Virus record (IMG/VR): IMGVR_UViG_3300033153_006492
Coordinates: 1 to 64,000 of that record
Reading direction: 5' to 3' (one strand)
Source: a virus
Length of the DNA: 64,000 nucleotides
Under the pieces are notes generated by a model, which saw only the letters and a program-made list of their open reading frames with translations, had not been told where the DNA came from and did no database searches. Positions within the stretch are counted from its first letter, which is position 1, and the number at the start of each line of letters is the position of its first letter. Shown piece by piece: positions 2,809-46,058 of the stretch. The position numbers and the translations under genes are program-made.

Positions 2809-2837
2809 TTGACAAGTAACATATTATTTCGTATCTT
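2809..2837 (+). promoter_or_regulatory. sigma70-type promoter
   Basis: TTGACA-17-TATCTT. Confidence 0.7.
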
Positions 2838-2875
2838 TCTGTGTTGGTGAAATTAAATAATAGAAGGAAAATGTT

Positions 2876-3031
2876 ATGGCTAATTATCGTAGTAAAAGTG
2901 GTTTTAATGGTAATCGTAGAAATAAAGGTACTAAAAAACTACAGTGGGTTATGAAGAATAAAAAGGACAAAGAACAACAAACGTATTATATAAAAAGACA
3001 AACAATTTCTGGTAATCGTGAGGAAATTTAA
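2876..3031 (+). CDS. small basic hypothetical protein (51 aa)
   Basis: AAGGA RBS; MANYRSKSGFNGNRRNKG... Confidence 0.5.
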   Translation: MANYRSKSGFNGNRRNKGTKKLQWVMKNKKDKEQQTYYIKRQTISGNREEI

Positions 3032-3331
3032 ATGATAAACTTAACAGAAAAAGAAAATAAGGTTTTGAAATATTTAGTTGCTGAAGGTCTTGAATGTATG
3101 GGCGGAAAGCAACCTACAGATTTAATTGAAGAAAATATGAGTTGGTTTGGAATTAAGGATATTATGTCTTTAGGTTTCAATCGACATCAAGCAGCTGGAC
3201 TAATGAGTAGCTTAAATGAAAAAGAAATGGTAATGGATACTGAAGGTGGAGTACCTGATTTAGATGGTAGAGTAACTTGGATTGTAACAGAAGATGGTAT
3301 TAATATCATTCAAAATTTGAAGGAAATGTAA
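3032..3331 (+). CDS. hypothetical protein, winged-helix-like
   Basis: LTEKENKVLKYL...GLMSSLNEKEMV...WIVTEDG pattern. Confidence 0.65.
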   Translation: MINLTEKENKVLKYLVAEGLECMGGKQPTDLIEENMSWFGIKDIMSLGFNRHQAAGLMSSLNEKEMVMDTEGGVPDLDGRVTWIVTEDGINIIQNLKEM

Positions 3332-3489
3332 ATGAGGTTATCTCAATATTTAGACGCAATGATAGTAAAAGAATTTCCTTCTTCGGCTGATTGGAAGACA
3401 AGGTATTCACATATTTCGAATACAGAAGAACTTAAATCCAATCGTCGTAAGTTAAAAATGTATAAAGATACGACTAAGAAAAAATAATT

Positions 3490-3574
3490 GGTACGGTGGG
3501 AGAGTGGTTAAATCCAGGGGTCTGTAAAACCTCCGCCTTTTCAGGCTACGTTGGTTCAAATCCAACCTGTACCA
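3490..3574 (+). tRNA. tRNA-Tyr(GTA)
   Basis: GGTACGG/CTGTACC, loop CTGTAAA, long variable arm. Confidence 0.92.
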
Positions 3575-3587
3575 CAAAGGTTCAAAT

Positions 3588-3659
3588 AAGGAAGTAGTAT
3601 AAGTAGTACGGTAGAAGCCGAGTCGATGACAGGTATAGGTTCAAATCCTATCTTCCTTA
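3588..3659 (+). ncRNA. tRNA-like RNA without a proper anticodon stem
   Basis: Perfect acceptor AAGGAAG/CTTCCTT and T-arm ATAGG-TTCAAAT-CCTAT; short D arm; unpaired anticodon region. Confidence 0.6.
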
Positions 3660-3670
3660 CTATAACAAAA

Positions 3671-3683
3671 TGTTCTTTGACAA
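3671..3683 (+). promoter_or_regulatory. boxA antitermination element
   Basis: TGTTCTTTGACAA inside tRNA cluster; second copy before tmRNA. Confidence 0.6.
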
Positions 3684-3696
3684 TATAAATTTTTAT

Positions 3697-3782
3697 GGGG
3701 TGATGACTGAATTGGCTAAGGTACGCGGCTGTAACCCGTTAGTCTCGCTGGACGAGTCAAGGTTCGAATCCTTGTCGCCCCA
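3697..3782 (+). tRNA. tRNA-Tyr(GTA), second copy
   Basis: GGGGTGA/TCGCCCC, loop CTGTAAC, long variable arm. Confidence 0.82.
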
Positions 3783-3862
3783 CTTTTTGTTTTCACTTGG
3801 GTTTGTTTAGAAAAATCAAACCTCTGCACATCGGTACTTATTAGAAATAATAAGGCCGATAT

Positions 3863-3934
3863 GGGGCTGTAGCTTAATGGTAGAGCGTCTCCCTGTCGAG
3901 GAGGAAGGTGTCGGTTCAAGTCCGATGGGTCTCG
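3863..3934 (+). tRNA. tRNA-Asp(GTC), second copy
   Basis: Loop CTGTCGA; weak acceptor stem; G73. Confidence 0.75.
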
Positions 3935-3961
3935 CAATATGTTGTAACTAAACAATTTTAT

Positions 3962-4040
3962 GGGTCTGTAGCAAATTACTGGCTTTGCAACTGGCTTTTA
4001 ACCAGTATAAATGTAGGTTCAATTCCTATCAGGCCCACCA
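3962..4040 (+). tRNA. tRNA-Lys(TTT), second copy
   Basis: GGGTCTG/CAGGCCC-A-CCA, loop CTTTTAA. Confidence 0.9.
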
Positions 4041-4059
4041 TAAAAAAAAAGAAGTATAT

Positions 4060-4130
4060 TGGCCTGTGGTGTAATGGAAGCACACCGCCCTTTGAAGGCG
4101 TTAGACATGGTTCGAGTCCATGCAGGCTAG
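4060..4130 (+). tRNA. tRNA-Gln(TTG)
   Basis: TGGCCTG/CAGGCTA-G, loop CTTTGAA. Confidence 0.9.
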
Positions 4131-15290: not shown

Positions 15291-15506
15291 ATGGACATTA
15301 TTGATTTTCAAGATAAACGATGGCAAGTAAAACATAGAGTCCGAGACGAAGGAATAACGTCTGAGGGATTAGAATGGTTTAAGTGGTACAAAGGAGCCAC
15401 AATGGTTTTGAAAAAAGATGGTGTCCTTCTTTTCGTTGACGAAATAGTTGACGCTGAATTTGAAGATTTTCCATATAAAAAAGATGAAAAAACACTTGAC
15501 AATTAA
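15291..15506 (+). CDS. hypothetical protein
   Basis: AGGAG RBS. Confidence 0.65.
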   Translation: MDIIDFQDKRWQVKHRVRDEGITSEGLEWFKWYKGATMVLKKDGVLLFVDEIVDAEFEDFPYKKDEKTLDN

Positions 15507-15524
15507 GTTTTTTATACTTATATT
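15496..15524 (+). promoter_or_regulatory. sigma70-type early promoter
   Basis: TTGACA-17-TATATT-CTG. Confidence 0.72.
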
Positions 15525-15548: not shown

Positions 15549-15842
15549 ATGAATGGTGTTATTGAAATTGTATTAGTTAATGTTAGAGCAATGATGGAAG
15601 TTACTAATCGTATTCGAAAGGCAGAAGAATTTTTTGAAAAGGAAATGGCATTTATTGATGATATTGATGTGGATACATTTCATTCATATTCAGAAGAACT
15701 ATTTCATATAAAAGAAGCTTTCAATGAGTGTGAAATAAAATATGAAAAAGGCGAAAATGTTTTTCTTGAAGTATTGTCGATATATCGTGCTTCTTTTGGG
15801 GTCGAACATTACATTCAGAGTATGAGTAAAGAAGATTATTAA
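15549..15842 (+). CDS. hypothetical protein
   Basis: AAGGAG RBS. Confidence 0.7.
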   Translation: MNGVIEIVLVNVRAMMEVTNRIRKAEEFFEKEMAFIDDIDVDTFHSYSEELFHIKEAFNECEIKYEKGENVFLEVLSIYRASFGVEHYIQSMSKEDY

Positions 15843-16000
15843 AATAAATGGAACTTTATTGAAATTAAATCGTGTAATTAGGTATGTTTGAAAAAAATAT
15901 ATATACTTATACTTGTATATATAAAATTTAAGAAGAATAATAAAAATTTAAAAGAAGGGAGATTGTCATGAATATGTGAAACTAAGAAGGAGAACATATC

Positions 16001-16162
16001 ATGGCAAAATCTCGAAGTGGATACAAACACCGTAAGCATGGTCGCGATAAAGTGAACTGTGAACGGTATCGTCGTGAAGGTCGTCGCGAAAAGAACAAAG
16101 CGCGTCGCCAAGCGAAACGTGAACGTCGTTTAGAAAAACGTCGTATACGCAGAGGTCTTTAA
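16001..16162 (+). CDS. 53-aa Arg/Lys-rich peptide
   Basis: AAGGAG RBS; MAKSRSGYKHRKHGRDKVNCERYRREGRREKNKARRQAKRERRLEKRRIRRGL. Confidence 0.7.
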   Translation: MAKSRSGYKHRKHGRDKVNCERYRREGRREKNKARRQAKRERRLEKRRIRRGL

Positions 16163-16166
16163 CAAC

Positions 16167-16396
16167 TTTTAGGGTCGGAGATGCAACGTTACCTCAGACG
16201 AAGCTGAAGAGAAGGTGAGTTTTCATACTTTACTCACTAACCATTCTATAAAACGAAGCCGAAAGGTTAGAATGGTCAGTATAAGTGTCTTGATAATAAC
16301 AAACAAGTAAAAAGTCATTGATATAACAATGTAAATAAAAACGTGGAATAAACTACGGAATAAACAATTCTTCGTTGGTCATAATTTATCCTAAAG
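16167..16396 (+). ncRNA. Y RNA-like gene 4 (large cargo domain)
   Basis: TTTTAGGGT[C]GGA / TTTATCCTAAAG; upper stem GATGCAACG/CGTTGGTC; TTACC; ~170-nt internal domain. Confidence 0.68.
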
Positions 16397-16401
16397 CATT
16401 T

Positions 16402-16511
16402 TAAATGGGTCGCTGGTACAGGGTTACCTCAATCGAAAACTGCGGCGTTCGCGCCGTAGGTGAAGCAGGACGTGATGCTCGTCAATCTCCTTGTCCACTT
16501 TTATCCGTTTA
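16402..16511 (+). ncRNA. Y RNA-like gene 5
   Basis: TAAATGGGT[C]G / TTTATCCGTTTA; upper stem TGGTACAGGG/CCTTGTCCA; TTACC; internal CTGCGGCG-TTCG-CGCCGTAG hairpin. Confidence 0.72.
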
Positions 16512-16528
16512 TATTTTTAACATTACAT

Positions 16529-16602
16529 TGCGGGGTAGAGCAGTCTGGTAGCTTGCTTGGCTCATAACCAAGTGGTCGCTGGTTCAAATCCAGCCCCCGC
16601 AA
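16529..16602 (+). tRNA. tRNA-Met(CAT), initiator-like
   Basis: TGCGGGG/CCCCGCA, D arm GAGCAGTCTGGTAGCTT, loop CTCATAA. Confidence 0.88.
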
Positions 16603-16634
16603 CTTTATAGGTCTTTCACAATATAATAATACAA

Positions 16635-16958
16635 GTCCTCGTGGCCGAATAACACGTATAGGCGTGTAAGGCATTGTAGCCCCAGCTGAAAAGCTTGGGG
16701 AGCGAGTTACGAACTTGGTGCGGATAAGGTGGCGACGTTCTGGAAGTGAGATCAACTTTTGGGGTTGAAATAAACAGAAACGAGCGCACGATTGCAGAAA
16801 TCCCCTAATACTTGGCATATAGCTACTATCTGTGATTATGAAGGTACAATCAATCCTTCCACTATTTAAAGATAAATTTCGACGGAGATTTATTGGTGTG
16901 ACTGAAAAATCCAAGTCCAGGCGTACGTTTGTGGGTAGATGCGAATCCCACCGAGGCA
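16635..16958 (+). ncRNA. ~324-nt RNA with tRNA-like ends and ~250-nt structured insert
   Basis: CCTCG/CGAGG acceptor, Leu/Ser-type D arm GCC-GAAT...A-GGC, T stem GTGGG/CCCAC with enlarged loop; several internal hairpins. Confidence 0.62.
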
Positions 16959-16987
16959 TTTTTTTATTAAAGTAACAAAACATTATT

Positions 16988-17049
16988 ATTGGGTCGTGAA
17001 TGATGGTCATCGAGCATTCGTAAAAAACATCATTCAACATTTATCTGGT
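16988..17049 (+). ncRNA. Y RNA-like element 6 in the ro60 leader
   Basis: ATTGGGT[C]G / TTTATCTGGT; upper stem TGAATGATG/CATCATTCA; TCATC. Confidence 0.68.
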
Positions 17050-17064
17050 TAATATTTTTAAGTG

Positions 17065-17096
17065 AACCCGCCAGATATTTCTGTGCGGGTTTTTTT
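17065..17096 (+). terminator. intrinsic terminator upstream of ro60
   Basis: AACCCGCCAGA...TCTGTGCGGGTT plus T run. Confidence 0.75.
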
Positions 17097-17141
17097 GTTT
17101 ATAAATTAGAGTCATTAATTCTAAATCAGGAGGTACATATC

Positions 17142-18830
17142 ATGCAAAAGTATAACAAACATGTAAACACACAAAAGACTTCACAACAAGAAGCAATTTT
17201 AGGTCGTGAAAAAGAAATGGCAAAGAACTATGCTGGTGGTGTAGTTTTTAAATTAGACGATTGGAAGGTACTTGATAGGTTCTTAATTCTTGGAAGCGAC
17301 AAACCTACTTACTATGCGTCTGCTCAAAAATTGACTAAAGAACATGCTAAGAATGTAATGGGATTAATTCAGGAAGATGCTAAGCGTGTCGTAGACCGTG
17401 TAGTTGAAATTTCATTAGCTGGTCGCGCACCAAACAACGATCCAGCATTATTCATTCTTGCGATGGTTGCAGGATTGGCTGACGACGAAGGAAAGAAATA
17501 TGCACTTAGTGTTCTTTCTAAAGTAGCCCGTATTGGAACACACTTATTTCACTTTGCAGAATATGTACAAGGGTTTCGAGGTTGGGGTCGTGGATTAAGA
17601 AATGGAATTGCCAAATGGTATCTTGAAAAGGATATTGATAAATTGGCTCTTCAAGTTGTAAAATATCAATCTCGCGATGGATGGTCTCACCGAGACATTC
17701 TTCGTAAGACTCACGTACAAGCCTTCAACGATGATATGAACAAAATTTTCGCTTGGGTTACACATGGAATTGGCGGCGAAATGAAAGTTAAGGGTGGAGA
17801 AACTGTAGAGACATTTCCACATACTGTTAATGATGTAAAGGACATTAAATTGATCTATGCATTTGAAATGGCTAAGAAAGCAACGTCGGAAGATGAAATC
17901 GTTGCTTTGATTAAGGAATACAGATTGCCAAGAGAAGCTATTCCTACGAATTTCATGGGTAAGAAAGTTTACCGAGCTCTTTTACCAGGGATGCCTATGA
18001 CTGCGTTAATTCGGAATTTAGGTAACCTGTCGAAGAATGGAATTCTTGTTGCTGGAAATTTTGACGACATTAATATGGTTGTTGAAAAAATTACTAACGA
18101 AGAAAACCTTAAAAAAGCAAGAGTTCATCCTATGCAATTGTTGATGGCAATGAAAACTTACGGAGCTGGACACGGAATGCGTGGGAAAGGTGAATGGAAA
18201 GTTGTACCACAGATCGTTGATGCTTTGGATGAAGCATTCTACAAAGCATTCTCATTTATTGTACCATCTGGAAAACGAATTCTTATTGCGCTTGATATTT
18301 CCGGTTCAATGGGTATGGATTACGGTGTGGCTGGTATTACTGGATTTACACCAAGAGAAGCATCTGCTGCTATGGCAATGGTAACGATGAAGGCAGAAAA
18401 GAATTGGGCAATTGTAGGATTTTCTGGTGGATATGGTAATGGGAGTTGGAATAATAACCGTGATGAATTAATCACATTGGATTTATCACCGAACATGAGA
18501 TTGAATGATGTTGTTAGAAAGGTAAGCAATTTACCATTTGGGTCTACTGATTGTGCATTACCTGCTGTTTGGGCGAAAAAAAATAAACTGGACTTTGATG
18601 CGATCTACATTTATACAGACAGCGAAACTTGGGTTGGAAACATTCAACCGGTTCAAGCGATGAGAGATTATCGTAAAGCTGTTGGACATGATGTTAAACT
18701 TGTTGTGGTAGCAATGACCTCGACTGGATTCACAATTGCTGATCCAAAAGACGCCTCTATGCTTGACGTTGTAGGATTTGATAGTAATGCACCTGCAATA
18801 ATGTCAAGCTTTGTAGACGATAAATTATAA
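17142..18830 (+). CDS. rsr: Ro60/Rsr RNA-binding protein (TROVE + vWA)
   Basis: LDRFLILG, GWGRGLR, KYQSRDGWSHRDILR, MPMTALIRNLG, ALDISGSM (MIDAS), TDCALP, YTDSETW, MLDVVGFD. Confidence 0.96.
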   Translation: MQKYNKHVNTQKTSQQEAILGREKEMAKNYAGGVVFKLDDWKVLDRFLILGSDKPTYYASAQKLTKEHAKNVMGLIQEDAKRVVDRVVEISLAGRAPNNDPALFILAMVAGLADDEGKKYALSVLSKVARIGTHLFHFAEYVQGFRGWGRGLRNGIAKWYLEKDIDKLALQVVKYQSRDGWSHRDILRKTHVQAFNDDMNKIFAWVTHGIGGEMKVKGGETVETFPHTVNDVKDIKLIYAFEMAKKATSEDEIVALIKEYRLPREAIPTNFMGKKVYRALLPGMPMTALIRNLGNLSKNGILVAGNFDDINMVVEKITNEENLKKARVHPMQLLMAMKTYGAGHGMRGKGEWKVVPQIVDALDEAFYKAFSFIVPSGKRILIALDISGSMGMDYGVAGITGFTPREASAAMAMVTMKAEKNWAIVGFSGGYGNGSWNNNRDELITLDLSPNMRLNDVVRKVSNLPFGSTDCALPAVWAKKNKLDFDAIYIYTDSETWVGNIQPVQAMRDYRKAVGHDVKLVVVAMTSTGFTIADPKDASMLDVVGFDSNAPAIMSSFVDDKL

Positions 18831-18886: not shown

Positions 18887-18914
18887 GCCGCCCCATTTTA
18901 GTGGGCGGCTTTTT
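18887..18914 (+). terminator. intrinsic terminator
   Basis: GCCGCCC...GGGCGGC-TTTTT. Confidence 0.8.
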
Positions 18915-18939
18915 ATTCTAAAAAAATCTAAAAATAAAC

Positions 18940-18968
18940 TTGACTGTCGCTGCTAAATTTCGTATCTT
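18940..18968 (+). promoter_or_regulatory. sigma70-type early promoter
   Basis: TTGACT-17-TATCTT-CTG. Confidence 0.65.
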
Positions 18969-28262: not shown

Positions 28263-28295
28263 AGGGCGATTTGTGATGAACAAGTCGCCTTTTTT
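28263..28295 (+). terminator. intrinsic terminator
   Basis: GGCGATTTGT/ACAAGTCGCC plus T run. Confidence 0.75.
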
Positions 28296-46026: not shown

Positions 46027-46058
46027 AGGTGTTTAATTTAATTTTATATATTTATATG

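What the first reader, a model, noticed from the sequence alone, without database searches (positions are those of the whole stretch)
16988..17142. Y-RNA mimic plus terminator in the ro60 leader: candidate Ro60-sensing attenuator
Seen: Y-like element 6 has the weakest terminal helix (4 GU of 7 bp). Its 3' strand TATCTGGT (17042-17049) can instead pair with GCCAGATA (17070-17077), which supplies six base pairs of the terminator at 17065-17096 located just before the ro60 RBS. The antiterminator therefore excludes both the Y stem and the terminator. Inference: free Ro60 clamps the Y stem, the terminator forms and ro60 transcription stops. Without Ro60 the antiterminator forms, which would balance Ro60 against its Y RNAs.
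Basis: partly seen in the sequence, partly recalled or inferred. Interest (0 to 1): 0.8.

Follow-up and report, generated by a model that had tools for sequence, protein, structure and literature searches.

The report
Y-type RNA and terminator before ro60
In an uncultured large phage, a small RNA of the kind that partners the Ro60 protein sits with a strong transcription stop signal just before the Ro60 gene; it can fold in two competing ways, so it may let Ro60 limit its own synthesis, but the sequence evidence is only suggestive.

Summary
A 62-nt Y-type hairpin (16988-17049, terminal helix 7 bp with 4 G-U), a strong intrinsic terminator (17064-17096) and an 8-bp alternative helix (17042-17049 with 17070-17077) are all in the sequence, 45 nt before ro60.

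The alternative helix excludes both the Y helix and six terminator pairs. It dominates the predicted ensemble only while the transcript ends at 17077-17083. After that the terminator wins by about 11 kcal/mol.

ro60 lies between two terminators and lacks the consensus promoter that other genes of this phage carry. It is probably reached by read-through.

The exact pairing is not conserved. Three related lineages each show their own complementarity between a strand of the Y helix or its flank and their own terminator, and each upstream segment pairs best with its cognate terminator. Against composition-matched shuffles this is above chance (p 0.002-0.12). In absolute energy it is no stronger than what ordinary terminators of this phage show.

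Two distant ro60 loci have the same layout without complementarity.

My odds:
- plain Y RNA gene with a leaky terminator: 0.5
- Ro60-sensing attenuator: about 0.27

Unchecked notes of this scan describe the same theme in other phages.

The parts
15496..15524 (+). Consensus sigma-70-type promoter (TTGACA-N17-TATATT), the likely start of the transcription unit that runs through ORF 15549-15842, ORF 16001-16162 and the ncRNA array to the terminator at 17064
   Evidence: one of 7 such sites on the + strand, 6 of them directly before ORFs with a Shine-Dalgarno sequence. That it drives this unit is inferred.
16167..16960 (+). Upstream part of the ncRNA array: two longer Y-type RNAs (about 16167-16396 and 16402-16511), tRNA (16529-16602) and a conserved structured RNA of about 330 nt (about 16620-16958)
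   Evidence: Conserved, in partly different order, in L002, L005 and L007.
16988..17049 (+).
   Evidence: Helix kept in relatives with one-sided changes and one two-sided change. Ensemble probability of the terminal helix is only 0.48-0.54 in the full leader, against 0.83-0.90 in L005 and L002.
17042..17077 (+). Alternative (antiterminator-like) helix: 17042-17049 pairs with 17070-17077, 8 bp, 20-nt loop
   Evidence: P=0.91-0.96 in transcripts ending at 17077-17080. The best structure with this helix forced is -20.9 kcal/mol, against -32.4 for the MFE.
17064..17096 (+). Intrinsic terminator: 12-bp stem with one bulged U (17084), loop UAUU, run of 7 T
   Evidence: hairpin -14.1 kcal/mol for the core. 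Homologous terminators in L002, L005 and L007.
17097..17141 (+). 45-nt spacer with GTTTATA (17097-17103) and Shine-Dalgarno AGGAGG (17128-17133); no consensus promoter
   Evidence: GTTTATA after a T run is common behind unrelated phage terminators.
17142..18830 (+). ro60 (562 aa; TROVE plus Ro60 vWA domains)
   Evidence: Relatives at 84, 71 and 66% identity.
18887..18968 (+). Terminator after ro60 (18887-18909), followed by a sigma-70-type promoter TTGACT-N17-TATCTT (18940-18968) for the next genes

Best explanation
The hairpin 16988-17049 is a real Y-type partner RNA of the phage Ro60. It is the last gene of an array of non-coding RNAs (three Y-type RNAs, a tRNA and a 330-nt RNA). The hairpin at 17064-17096 is the array's intrinsic terminator. 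ro60 has no recognisable promoter of its own, so it is transcribed by the minority of polymerases that read through this terminator. That fixes a high ratio of RNAs to ro60 mRNA without sensing anything. On this reading the 8-bp alternative helix is either incidental or only raises the basal leak. Shown: the elements, their energies, the lack of a consensus promoter, and the recurrence of the layout. Inferred: read-through as the source of ro60 mRNA, and the absence of ligand control.
For: Y RNAs encoded directly upstream of ro60 and processed from one precursor are the known arrangement (PMC4201824 for M. smegmatis and D. radiodurans; PMC12135203 for Thermus phage phiLo). The same order, with a Y RNA, a terminator and ro60 about 45 nt further on, occurs in a distant phage (L038) and in a Rhodospirillales MAG (L185). 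Neither shows complementarity upstream of the terminator (p 0.15-0.98). At equilibrium the terminator state is 11.5 kcal/mol better than the alternative state, and it takes over once the transcript reaches about 17086. In all four lineages the G+C-rich base of the terminator (AACCC/GGGUU) is left free by the alternative helix, which gives a toehold for displacement. Upstream complementarity of the same absolute strength (-11 to -11.7 kcal/mol) is found at ordinary terminators of this phage (28265, 44992). Against real 20-mers of the phage the pairing is p=0.09. Two relatives (L010 at 67% and L039 at 55% Ro60 identity) have ro60 directly behind other genes or a tRNA, with no such leader.
Against: Complementarity between the Y-helix region and the terminator is above composition-matched chance in W, L002 and L005, and weakly so in L007. 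Each upstream segment pairs best with its own terminator: diagonal -10.9, -9.2, -11.6, -6.1 kcal/mol against -2.3 to -7.2 off the diagonal, and the same holds for the 45-nt segments. L002 and L005 differ by two-sided changes, GAUAU with AUAUC against GUUUU with AAAAC. This suggests selection on the alternative helix. In W the three changes that weaken the Y helix (CCAAG to CUGGU) are the ones that create the pairing with CCAG of the terminator.
Confidence: 0.5

Rival explanations
1. Ro60-sensing attenuator. The Y terminal helix acts as an anti-antiterminator, 17042-17049/17070-77 as the antiterminator, and 17064-17096 as the terminator. Free Ro60 clamps the weak Y helix on the nascent RNA, the antiterminator cannot form, and transcription stops, which releases one more Y RNA. 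When Ro60 is scarce the antiterminator forms first and polymerase reads into ro60.
For: All three structures exist and exclude each other as required. The antiterminator dominates the ensemble of transcripts ending at 17077-17080 (P 0.91-0.96), while the unaided Y helix has P about 0. The barrier from the alternative state to the terminator is about 11 kcal/mol by findpath in a nested model, an upper bound. No consensus promoter lies after the terminator. In all four lineages the alternative helix uses a strand of the presumed Ro60-binding helix: 7 of 8 nt in W, 4 nt in L002 and L005, and the 5' strand in L007. The complementarity is specific to each lineage. The logic is proven for other RNA-binding proteins: L10(L12)4 on rplJL (PMC4538822) and L20 on infC (PMC1865079).
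Against: The relatives use another register, which reaches into the 3' strand of the terminator and so cannot fully form first. In L002 and L005 the Y helix is stable by itself (P 0.83-0.90) and coexists with most of the alternative helix. The terminator base is never sequestered. An H-type pseudoknot intermediate could allow fast displacement, so the true barrier may be low. The out-group loci L038 and L185 lack the complementarity. There is no evidence of Ro60 binding, and no paper on Ro60 autoregulation was found.
Confidence: 0.27
2. A functional read-through tuner that does not sense Ro60. The alternative helix is selected because it delays terminator folding and sets the leak. It may respond to elongation speed, temperature or another factor that binds the A/U-rich spacer 17050-17063.
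For: The same statistics and lineage-specific complementarity as above apply. In L002 and L005 most of the alternative helix lies outside the Y helix.
Against: No candidate sensor was identified. The overlap with a Y-helix strand in all four lineages would then be a coincidence.
Confidence: 0.13
3. ro60 has its own promoter of a phage-specific class, in or just after the terminator. The terminator then merely insulates it from the RNA array.
For: GTTTATA(T)AA directly after the T run is kept in all four lineages. An A/T-rich motif TTTATATATTTATA recurs in the window, for example before the tmRNA at 46043, and shares its first half with it.
Against: There is no -35/-10 pair with workable spacing. 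A -10 at 17121-17126 would start the mRNA inside the Shine-Dalgarno sequence. TATAAATA is not linked to ORF starts (0 of 20). GTTTATA after a T run is common behind unrelated terminators.
Confidence: 0.1

Closest known systems
Bacterial and phage Y RNAs bound by Ro60/Rsr (Yrn1/Yrn2, YrlA/YrlB, phiLo Yrl1/Yrl2; PMC4201824, PMC12135203)
   Same: Encoded just upstream of ro60 on the same strand, several per locus and next to tRNA genes. The 5' and 3' ends pair in a helix with an unpaired C, with a second helix above.
   Different: No match to any Rfam model, even at E up to 10. Only 62 nt long, with no tRNA-like module. Followed directly by a terminator that is also the barrier before ro60. Ro60 binding untested.
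L10(L12)4 autogenous attenuation of B. subtilis rplJL (PMC4538822)
   Same: The proposed logic is identical: the protein stabilises an anti-antiterminator that resembles its normal RNA target, the antiterminator fails to form, and the leader terminator acts.
   Different: There the three structures and the protein effect were shown by binding, in vitro transcription and mutations. Here only sequence and predicted energies exist. Here the antiterminator is short (8 bp) and covers half of the terminator's 5' strand.
L20 control of the B. subtilis infC-rpmI-rplT leader (PMC1865079)
   Same: Molecular mimicry of the protein's RNA site in a leader, with premature termination on binding.
   Different: That leader is 200 nt and phylogenetically conserved. 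Here the terminated product would itself be a functional partner RNA, and conservation of the switch is only partial.
tRNA or ncRNA genes co-transcribed with a downstream protein gene through a partial terminator (own knowledge: for example E. coli thrU-tyrU-glyT-thrT-tufB)
   Same: Stable RNA genes and a protein gene in one unit, with the ratio set by transcription and processing.
   Different: A strong terminator lies between the RNAs and the gene, and the protein is the binding partner of the RNAs.

Membership tests
Y RNA (Ro60 partner RNA) | Encoded next to ro60, same strand | tested here: met
   Hairpin 16988-17049 lies 93 nt before the ro60 ATG at 17142.
Y RNA (Ro60 partner RNA) | Terminal helix formed by the 5' and 3' ends, with an unpaired C and a second helix above, conserved among copies | tested here: met
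   Fold. The layout GGGUCG...UUUAUCC is shared by elements at 16167 and 16402, and GAGCCG...UUUGUUC by those at 243, 391 and 562. Kept in L002, L005 and L007.
Y RNA (Ro60 partner RNA) | Match to the curated covariance models of Rfam (Y RNA families) | tested here: not met
   No Y RNA family among matches at gathering score or at E up to 10 in 15800-17300.
YrlA subfamily | tRNA-like module (T and D arms) in the loop | tested here: not met
   The loop is 22 nt with a 3-bp mini hairpin. Canonical T/D-arm modules are seen in the out-groups L038 and L185.
Y RNA (Ro60 partner RNA) | Bound by Ro60 | not testable with these tools
   Needs EMSA or co-purification.
Autogenous transcription attenuator (anti-antiterminator / antiterminator / terminator) | Intrinsic terminator between promoter and regulated gene, with no promoter after it | tested here: inconclusive
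   The terminator is clear. No consensus promoter lies in 17097-17141, but phage-specific promoters cannot be excluded.
Autogenous transcription attenuator (anti-antiterminator / antiterminator / terminator) | Antiterminator excludes both the terminator and the protein-binding structure | tested here: met
   17042-17049/17070-17077 uses 7 nt of the Y 3' strand and six terminator stem positions. In L002 and L005 the overlap with the Y helix is 4 nt.
Autogenous transcription attenuator (anti-antiterminator / antiterminator / terminator) | Alternative pairing conserved, with covariation, in homologous leaders | tested here: inconclusive
   The exact pairing is not conserved. Lineage-specific complementarity is present, in other registers. 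Only four lineages were available.
Autogenous transcription attenuator (anti-antiterminator / antiterminator / terminator) | The encoded protein binds the leader and increases termination | not testable with these tools
   Needs in vitro transcription with purified Ro60.

The most novel reading that the evidence does not exclude
A Y RNA that is at once a partner RNA and a cis-acting sensor. Ro60 clamps the nascent Y helix, which blocks an antiterminator and stops transcription before its own gene, so each termination event yields one more Y RNA and no ro60 mRNA. This would be the first autoregulatory circuit described for Ro60 and the first Y RNA with a cis-regulatory role. Different phage lineages would maintain it by different base-pairing solutions.
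Probability: 0.27. Interest if true: 0.8.

Novelty: new variant of a known kind. Interest (0 to 1): 0.55.

Why it matters
How cells or phages keep Ro60 in balance with its Y RNAs is not known, and no autoregulation of Ro60 was found in the literature searched. If the switch is real, it extends Nomura-type autogenous control by molecular mimicry from ribosomal proteins to the Ro60/Y RNA system. It would also give a compact construct of about 160 nt for testing Ro60-RNA recognition co-transcriptionally. If it is not real, the locus is still a clear example of a minimal 62-nt Y-type RNA without a tRNA-like module, in a phage that places ro60 behind a terminator with no promoter of its own.

Tried and rejected
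The contigs of eight further Ro60 relatives at 64-73% identity (P0003-P0010, P0013) could not be fetched, so the covariation test rests on four lineages.
- Sequencing runs: none was listed and no RNA holder is listed.
- Megablast against the phage records found no match.
- Genome contigs: the first scan found nothing. The second found only relatives at 51% identity or less.
- DNA pattern scans of viral contigs gave only the L001/L002 lineage plus spurious hits: L092, L093, L094-L107 and L188-L207.
- T4-type late promoter TATAAATA as the ro60 promoter was rejected: 0 of 20 sites lie before an ORF start.
- Leader-peptide attenuation was rejected. The mini-ORF at 17000-17023 has no Shine-Dalgarno sequence, and its frame and stop are not kept in L002 (read).
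- A DNA operator (an inverted repeat bound by a protein) was rejected as unlikely, because the sequence and spacing of the repeat (20, 25, 29 nt) differ between lineages while complementarity is kept.
- The automatic alignment of the four leaders misaligns the spacer and was not used for pair counts.

Full report
**Context**

The window is part of a 78.7-kb fragment, about 37% complete, of an uncultured phage. It has 33% G+C, 26 tRNA matches and a tmRNA.

ORF 17142-18830 is a Ro60 orthologue: TROVE 1.4e-35 and Ro60 vWA 8.8e-59. The nearest named relatives are 'Ro-like RNA binding proteins' of actinobacteriophages, at 46% identity or less.

Upstream, 16160-17100 holds no credible ORF. It carries an RNA array:
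- two long Y-type elements
- a tRNA (16529-16602)
- a conserved RNA of about 330 nt
- the hairpin in question

**Observation**

- The hairpin 16988-17049 has a 7-bp terminal helix with four G-U pairs, unpaired CG, a 9-bp upper helix and a 22-nt loop.
- The terminator is a 12-bp stem with one bulge, followed by seven T (17064-17096).
- TATCTGGT (17042-17049) can pair with GCCAGATA (17070-17077). That stretch supplies six terminator stem positions.
- AGGAGG lies at 17128-17133.
- The layout GGGUCG...UUUAUCC is shared with the two upstream elements. A variant, GAGCCG...UUUGUUC, is shared by three elements at 243-649. This supports the Y-type reading, although no Rfam family matches even at E up to 10.

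**Energetics**

- The full leader folds into the Y helix plus the terminator at -32.4 kcal/mol. Forcing the alternative helix gives -20.9.
- In transcripts ending at 17077-17080 the alternative helix has probability 0.91-0.96, and the Y terminal helix about 0.
- By 17086 the alternative helix has dropped to 0.07.
- The unaided Y helix is marginal even in the full leader: 0.48-0.54, against 0.83-0.90 in two relatives.
- findpath gives a barrier of about 11 kcal/mol from the alternative state to the terminator. This is an upper bound, because the free AACCC/GGGUU base could nucleate through an H-type pseudoknot that the nested model cannot represent (inference).

**Promoters**

- The phage has a clear promoter class, TTGAC[AT]-N17-TATATT. 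There are seven on the + strand, and six lie directly before ORFs.
- Three of these sit immediately after terminators at 28265, 44992 and, as TTGACT-N17-TATCTT, at 18940 after the ro60 terminator 18887-18909.
- One at 15496 probably starts the unit that contains the array.
- None lies in 17097-17141.
- ro60 therefore sits between two terminators without a recognisable promoter. Read-through is the simplest source of its mRNA (inference).

**Relatives**

Four lineages carry the homologous leader:
- the window (W)
- L004/L005, at 84% Ro60 identity
- L007, at 71%
- L001/L002/L006/L011, at 66%

The Y helix is kept in all four:
- UUUGGGU with AUCCAAG in L005 and L002
- UUUGGGU with AUCUAAA in L007, where the upper helix has been lost
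- AUUGGGU with AUCUGGU in W

In L002, CAAGAUAUUU-GU can pair with ACAAAUAUCUUG, the apex of its terminator. In L005, CAAGUUUUU-G pairs with CAAAAACUUG. The two differ by two-sided changes. In both, only 4 nt overlap the Y helix, and the helix reaches 3 nt into the 3' strand of the terminator. In L007 the best competitor is the Y 5' strand paired with the terminator's 5' strand and loop.

These helices are transiently populated (P 0.7-0.8) in prefix ensembles.

**Statistics**

| Test | W | L005 | L002 | L007 |
|---|---|---|---|---|
| Shuffles of the 20-nt segment, p | 0.002 | 0.019 | 0.002 | 0.066 |
| Dinucleotide shuffles of the 45 nt upstream, p | 0.0055 | 0.088 | 0.0105 | 0.12 |
| Real 20-mers of the phage, p | 0.094 | 0.145 | 0.027 | 0.40 |
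| Cognate duplex energy, 20-nt segment, kcal/mol | -10.9 | -9.2 | -11.6 | -6.1 |

- The W terminator ranks first of 22 by z-score (-2.4) among terminator-like hairpins of the window.
- In a cross test, every upstream segment pairs best with its own terminator. Non-cognate pairs score -2.3 to -7.2 kcal/mol. The 45-nt segments give the same pattern.
- Counterweight: ordinary terminators of this phage show upstream complementarity of the same absolute size, -11.0 to -11.7 kcal/mol.
- L002 and L005 share the CAAG/CUUG core by descent, so they are not independent.

**Out-groups**

- Among 153 other ro60 loci, few have a terminator within 260 nt upstream.
- Two do: phage L038 and a Rhodospirillales MAG, L185. 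Each has a canonical tRNA-like YrlA, then a terminator, then ro60 about 45 nt later. Neither shows complementarity (p 0.15-0.98).
- L010 (67% identity) and L039 (55%) have no such leader.

**Literature**

- Y RNAs upstream of ro60 are the known arrangement (PMC4201824, PMC12135203).
- No report of Ro60 autoregulation was found.
- The proposed logic is that of L10(L12)4 on rplJL and of L20 on infC (PMC4538822, PMC1865079).

**Verdict**

I give:
- 0.5 to a plain Y RNA gene whose terminator lets a fraction of polymerases into ro60
- 0.27 to Ro60-sensing attenuation
- 0.13 to a tuner that senses something else
- 0.1 to an unrecognised promoter

Unchecked notes of this scan report the same theme upstream of ro60 in several other phages. 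I treated them as leads, not as evidence.

Noticed in passing
window 16620-16958; L002 2460-2770; L005 2440-2770; L007 about 500-650: Conserved structured RNA of about 330 nt with tRNA-like ends (T-arm-like GUGGG...CCCAC, followed by CAUUUUUUU). The only weak Rfam hit is manA RNA (E=3.8, 16641-16805).
   Followed up: partly
window 16001-16162: 53-aa ORF, very rich in Arg and Lys, with a good Shine-Dalgarno sequence. It ends 10 nt before the first Y-type RNA and is conserved in L005 (its end is at about L005 1900-1930). No Pfam match at E up to 0.1.
   Followed up: partly
L007 737-1585 and 1599-4075: In this relative a GIY-YIG/NUMOD3 homing-endonuclease-like ORF (Pfam E 1.5e-4 and 2.2e-4) is inserted between the leader terminator and ro60. 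ro60 itself is split into two ORFs (1599-2036 and 2810-4075) by a third ORF (2040-2807). The Y-type element is reduced to a 7-bp mini hairpin.
   Followed up: partly
L005 2305-2415: The homologue of the tRNA at window 16529-16602 carries an insertion of about 50 nt right after the anticodon loop region. It may be an intron or an insert.
   Followed up: no
window 7226, 15496, 28298, 35737, 36287, 45020, 47925 (+ strand): Clear promoter class TTGAC[AT]-N17-TATATT, often followed by CTG. Six of the seven lie directly before ORFs, several immediately after terminators.
   Followed up: yes
window 12057, 24485, 27205, 46043, 50957: Recurring motif TTTATATATTTATA in intergenic regions, for example 126 nt before the tmRNA. 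It may be a second, phage-specific promoter class.
   Followed up: no
L038 1790-1960; L185 1780-1960: Canonical YrlA-type Y RNAs with T and D arms, each followed by an intrinsic terminator about 45 nt before ro60, in a distant phage and in a Rhodospirillales MAG.
   Followed up: partly
L039 1560-1950: A tmRNA-like 3' end and a tRNA lie directly upstream of ro60, with no terminator, in a relative at 55% identity.
   Followed up: no
L002 2805-2840; L005 2800-2835: A hairpin (GAGAUUGUA...UACAAUCUC in L002, GAAAUUGU...ACAAUUUC in L005, with two-sided changes) lies between the 330-nt RNA and the Y-type hairpin. It is absent from the window. In L002 it overlaps a possible TTGTAA-N16-CATAAT promoter.
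   Followed up: no
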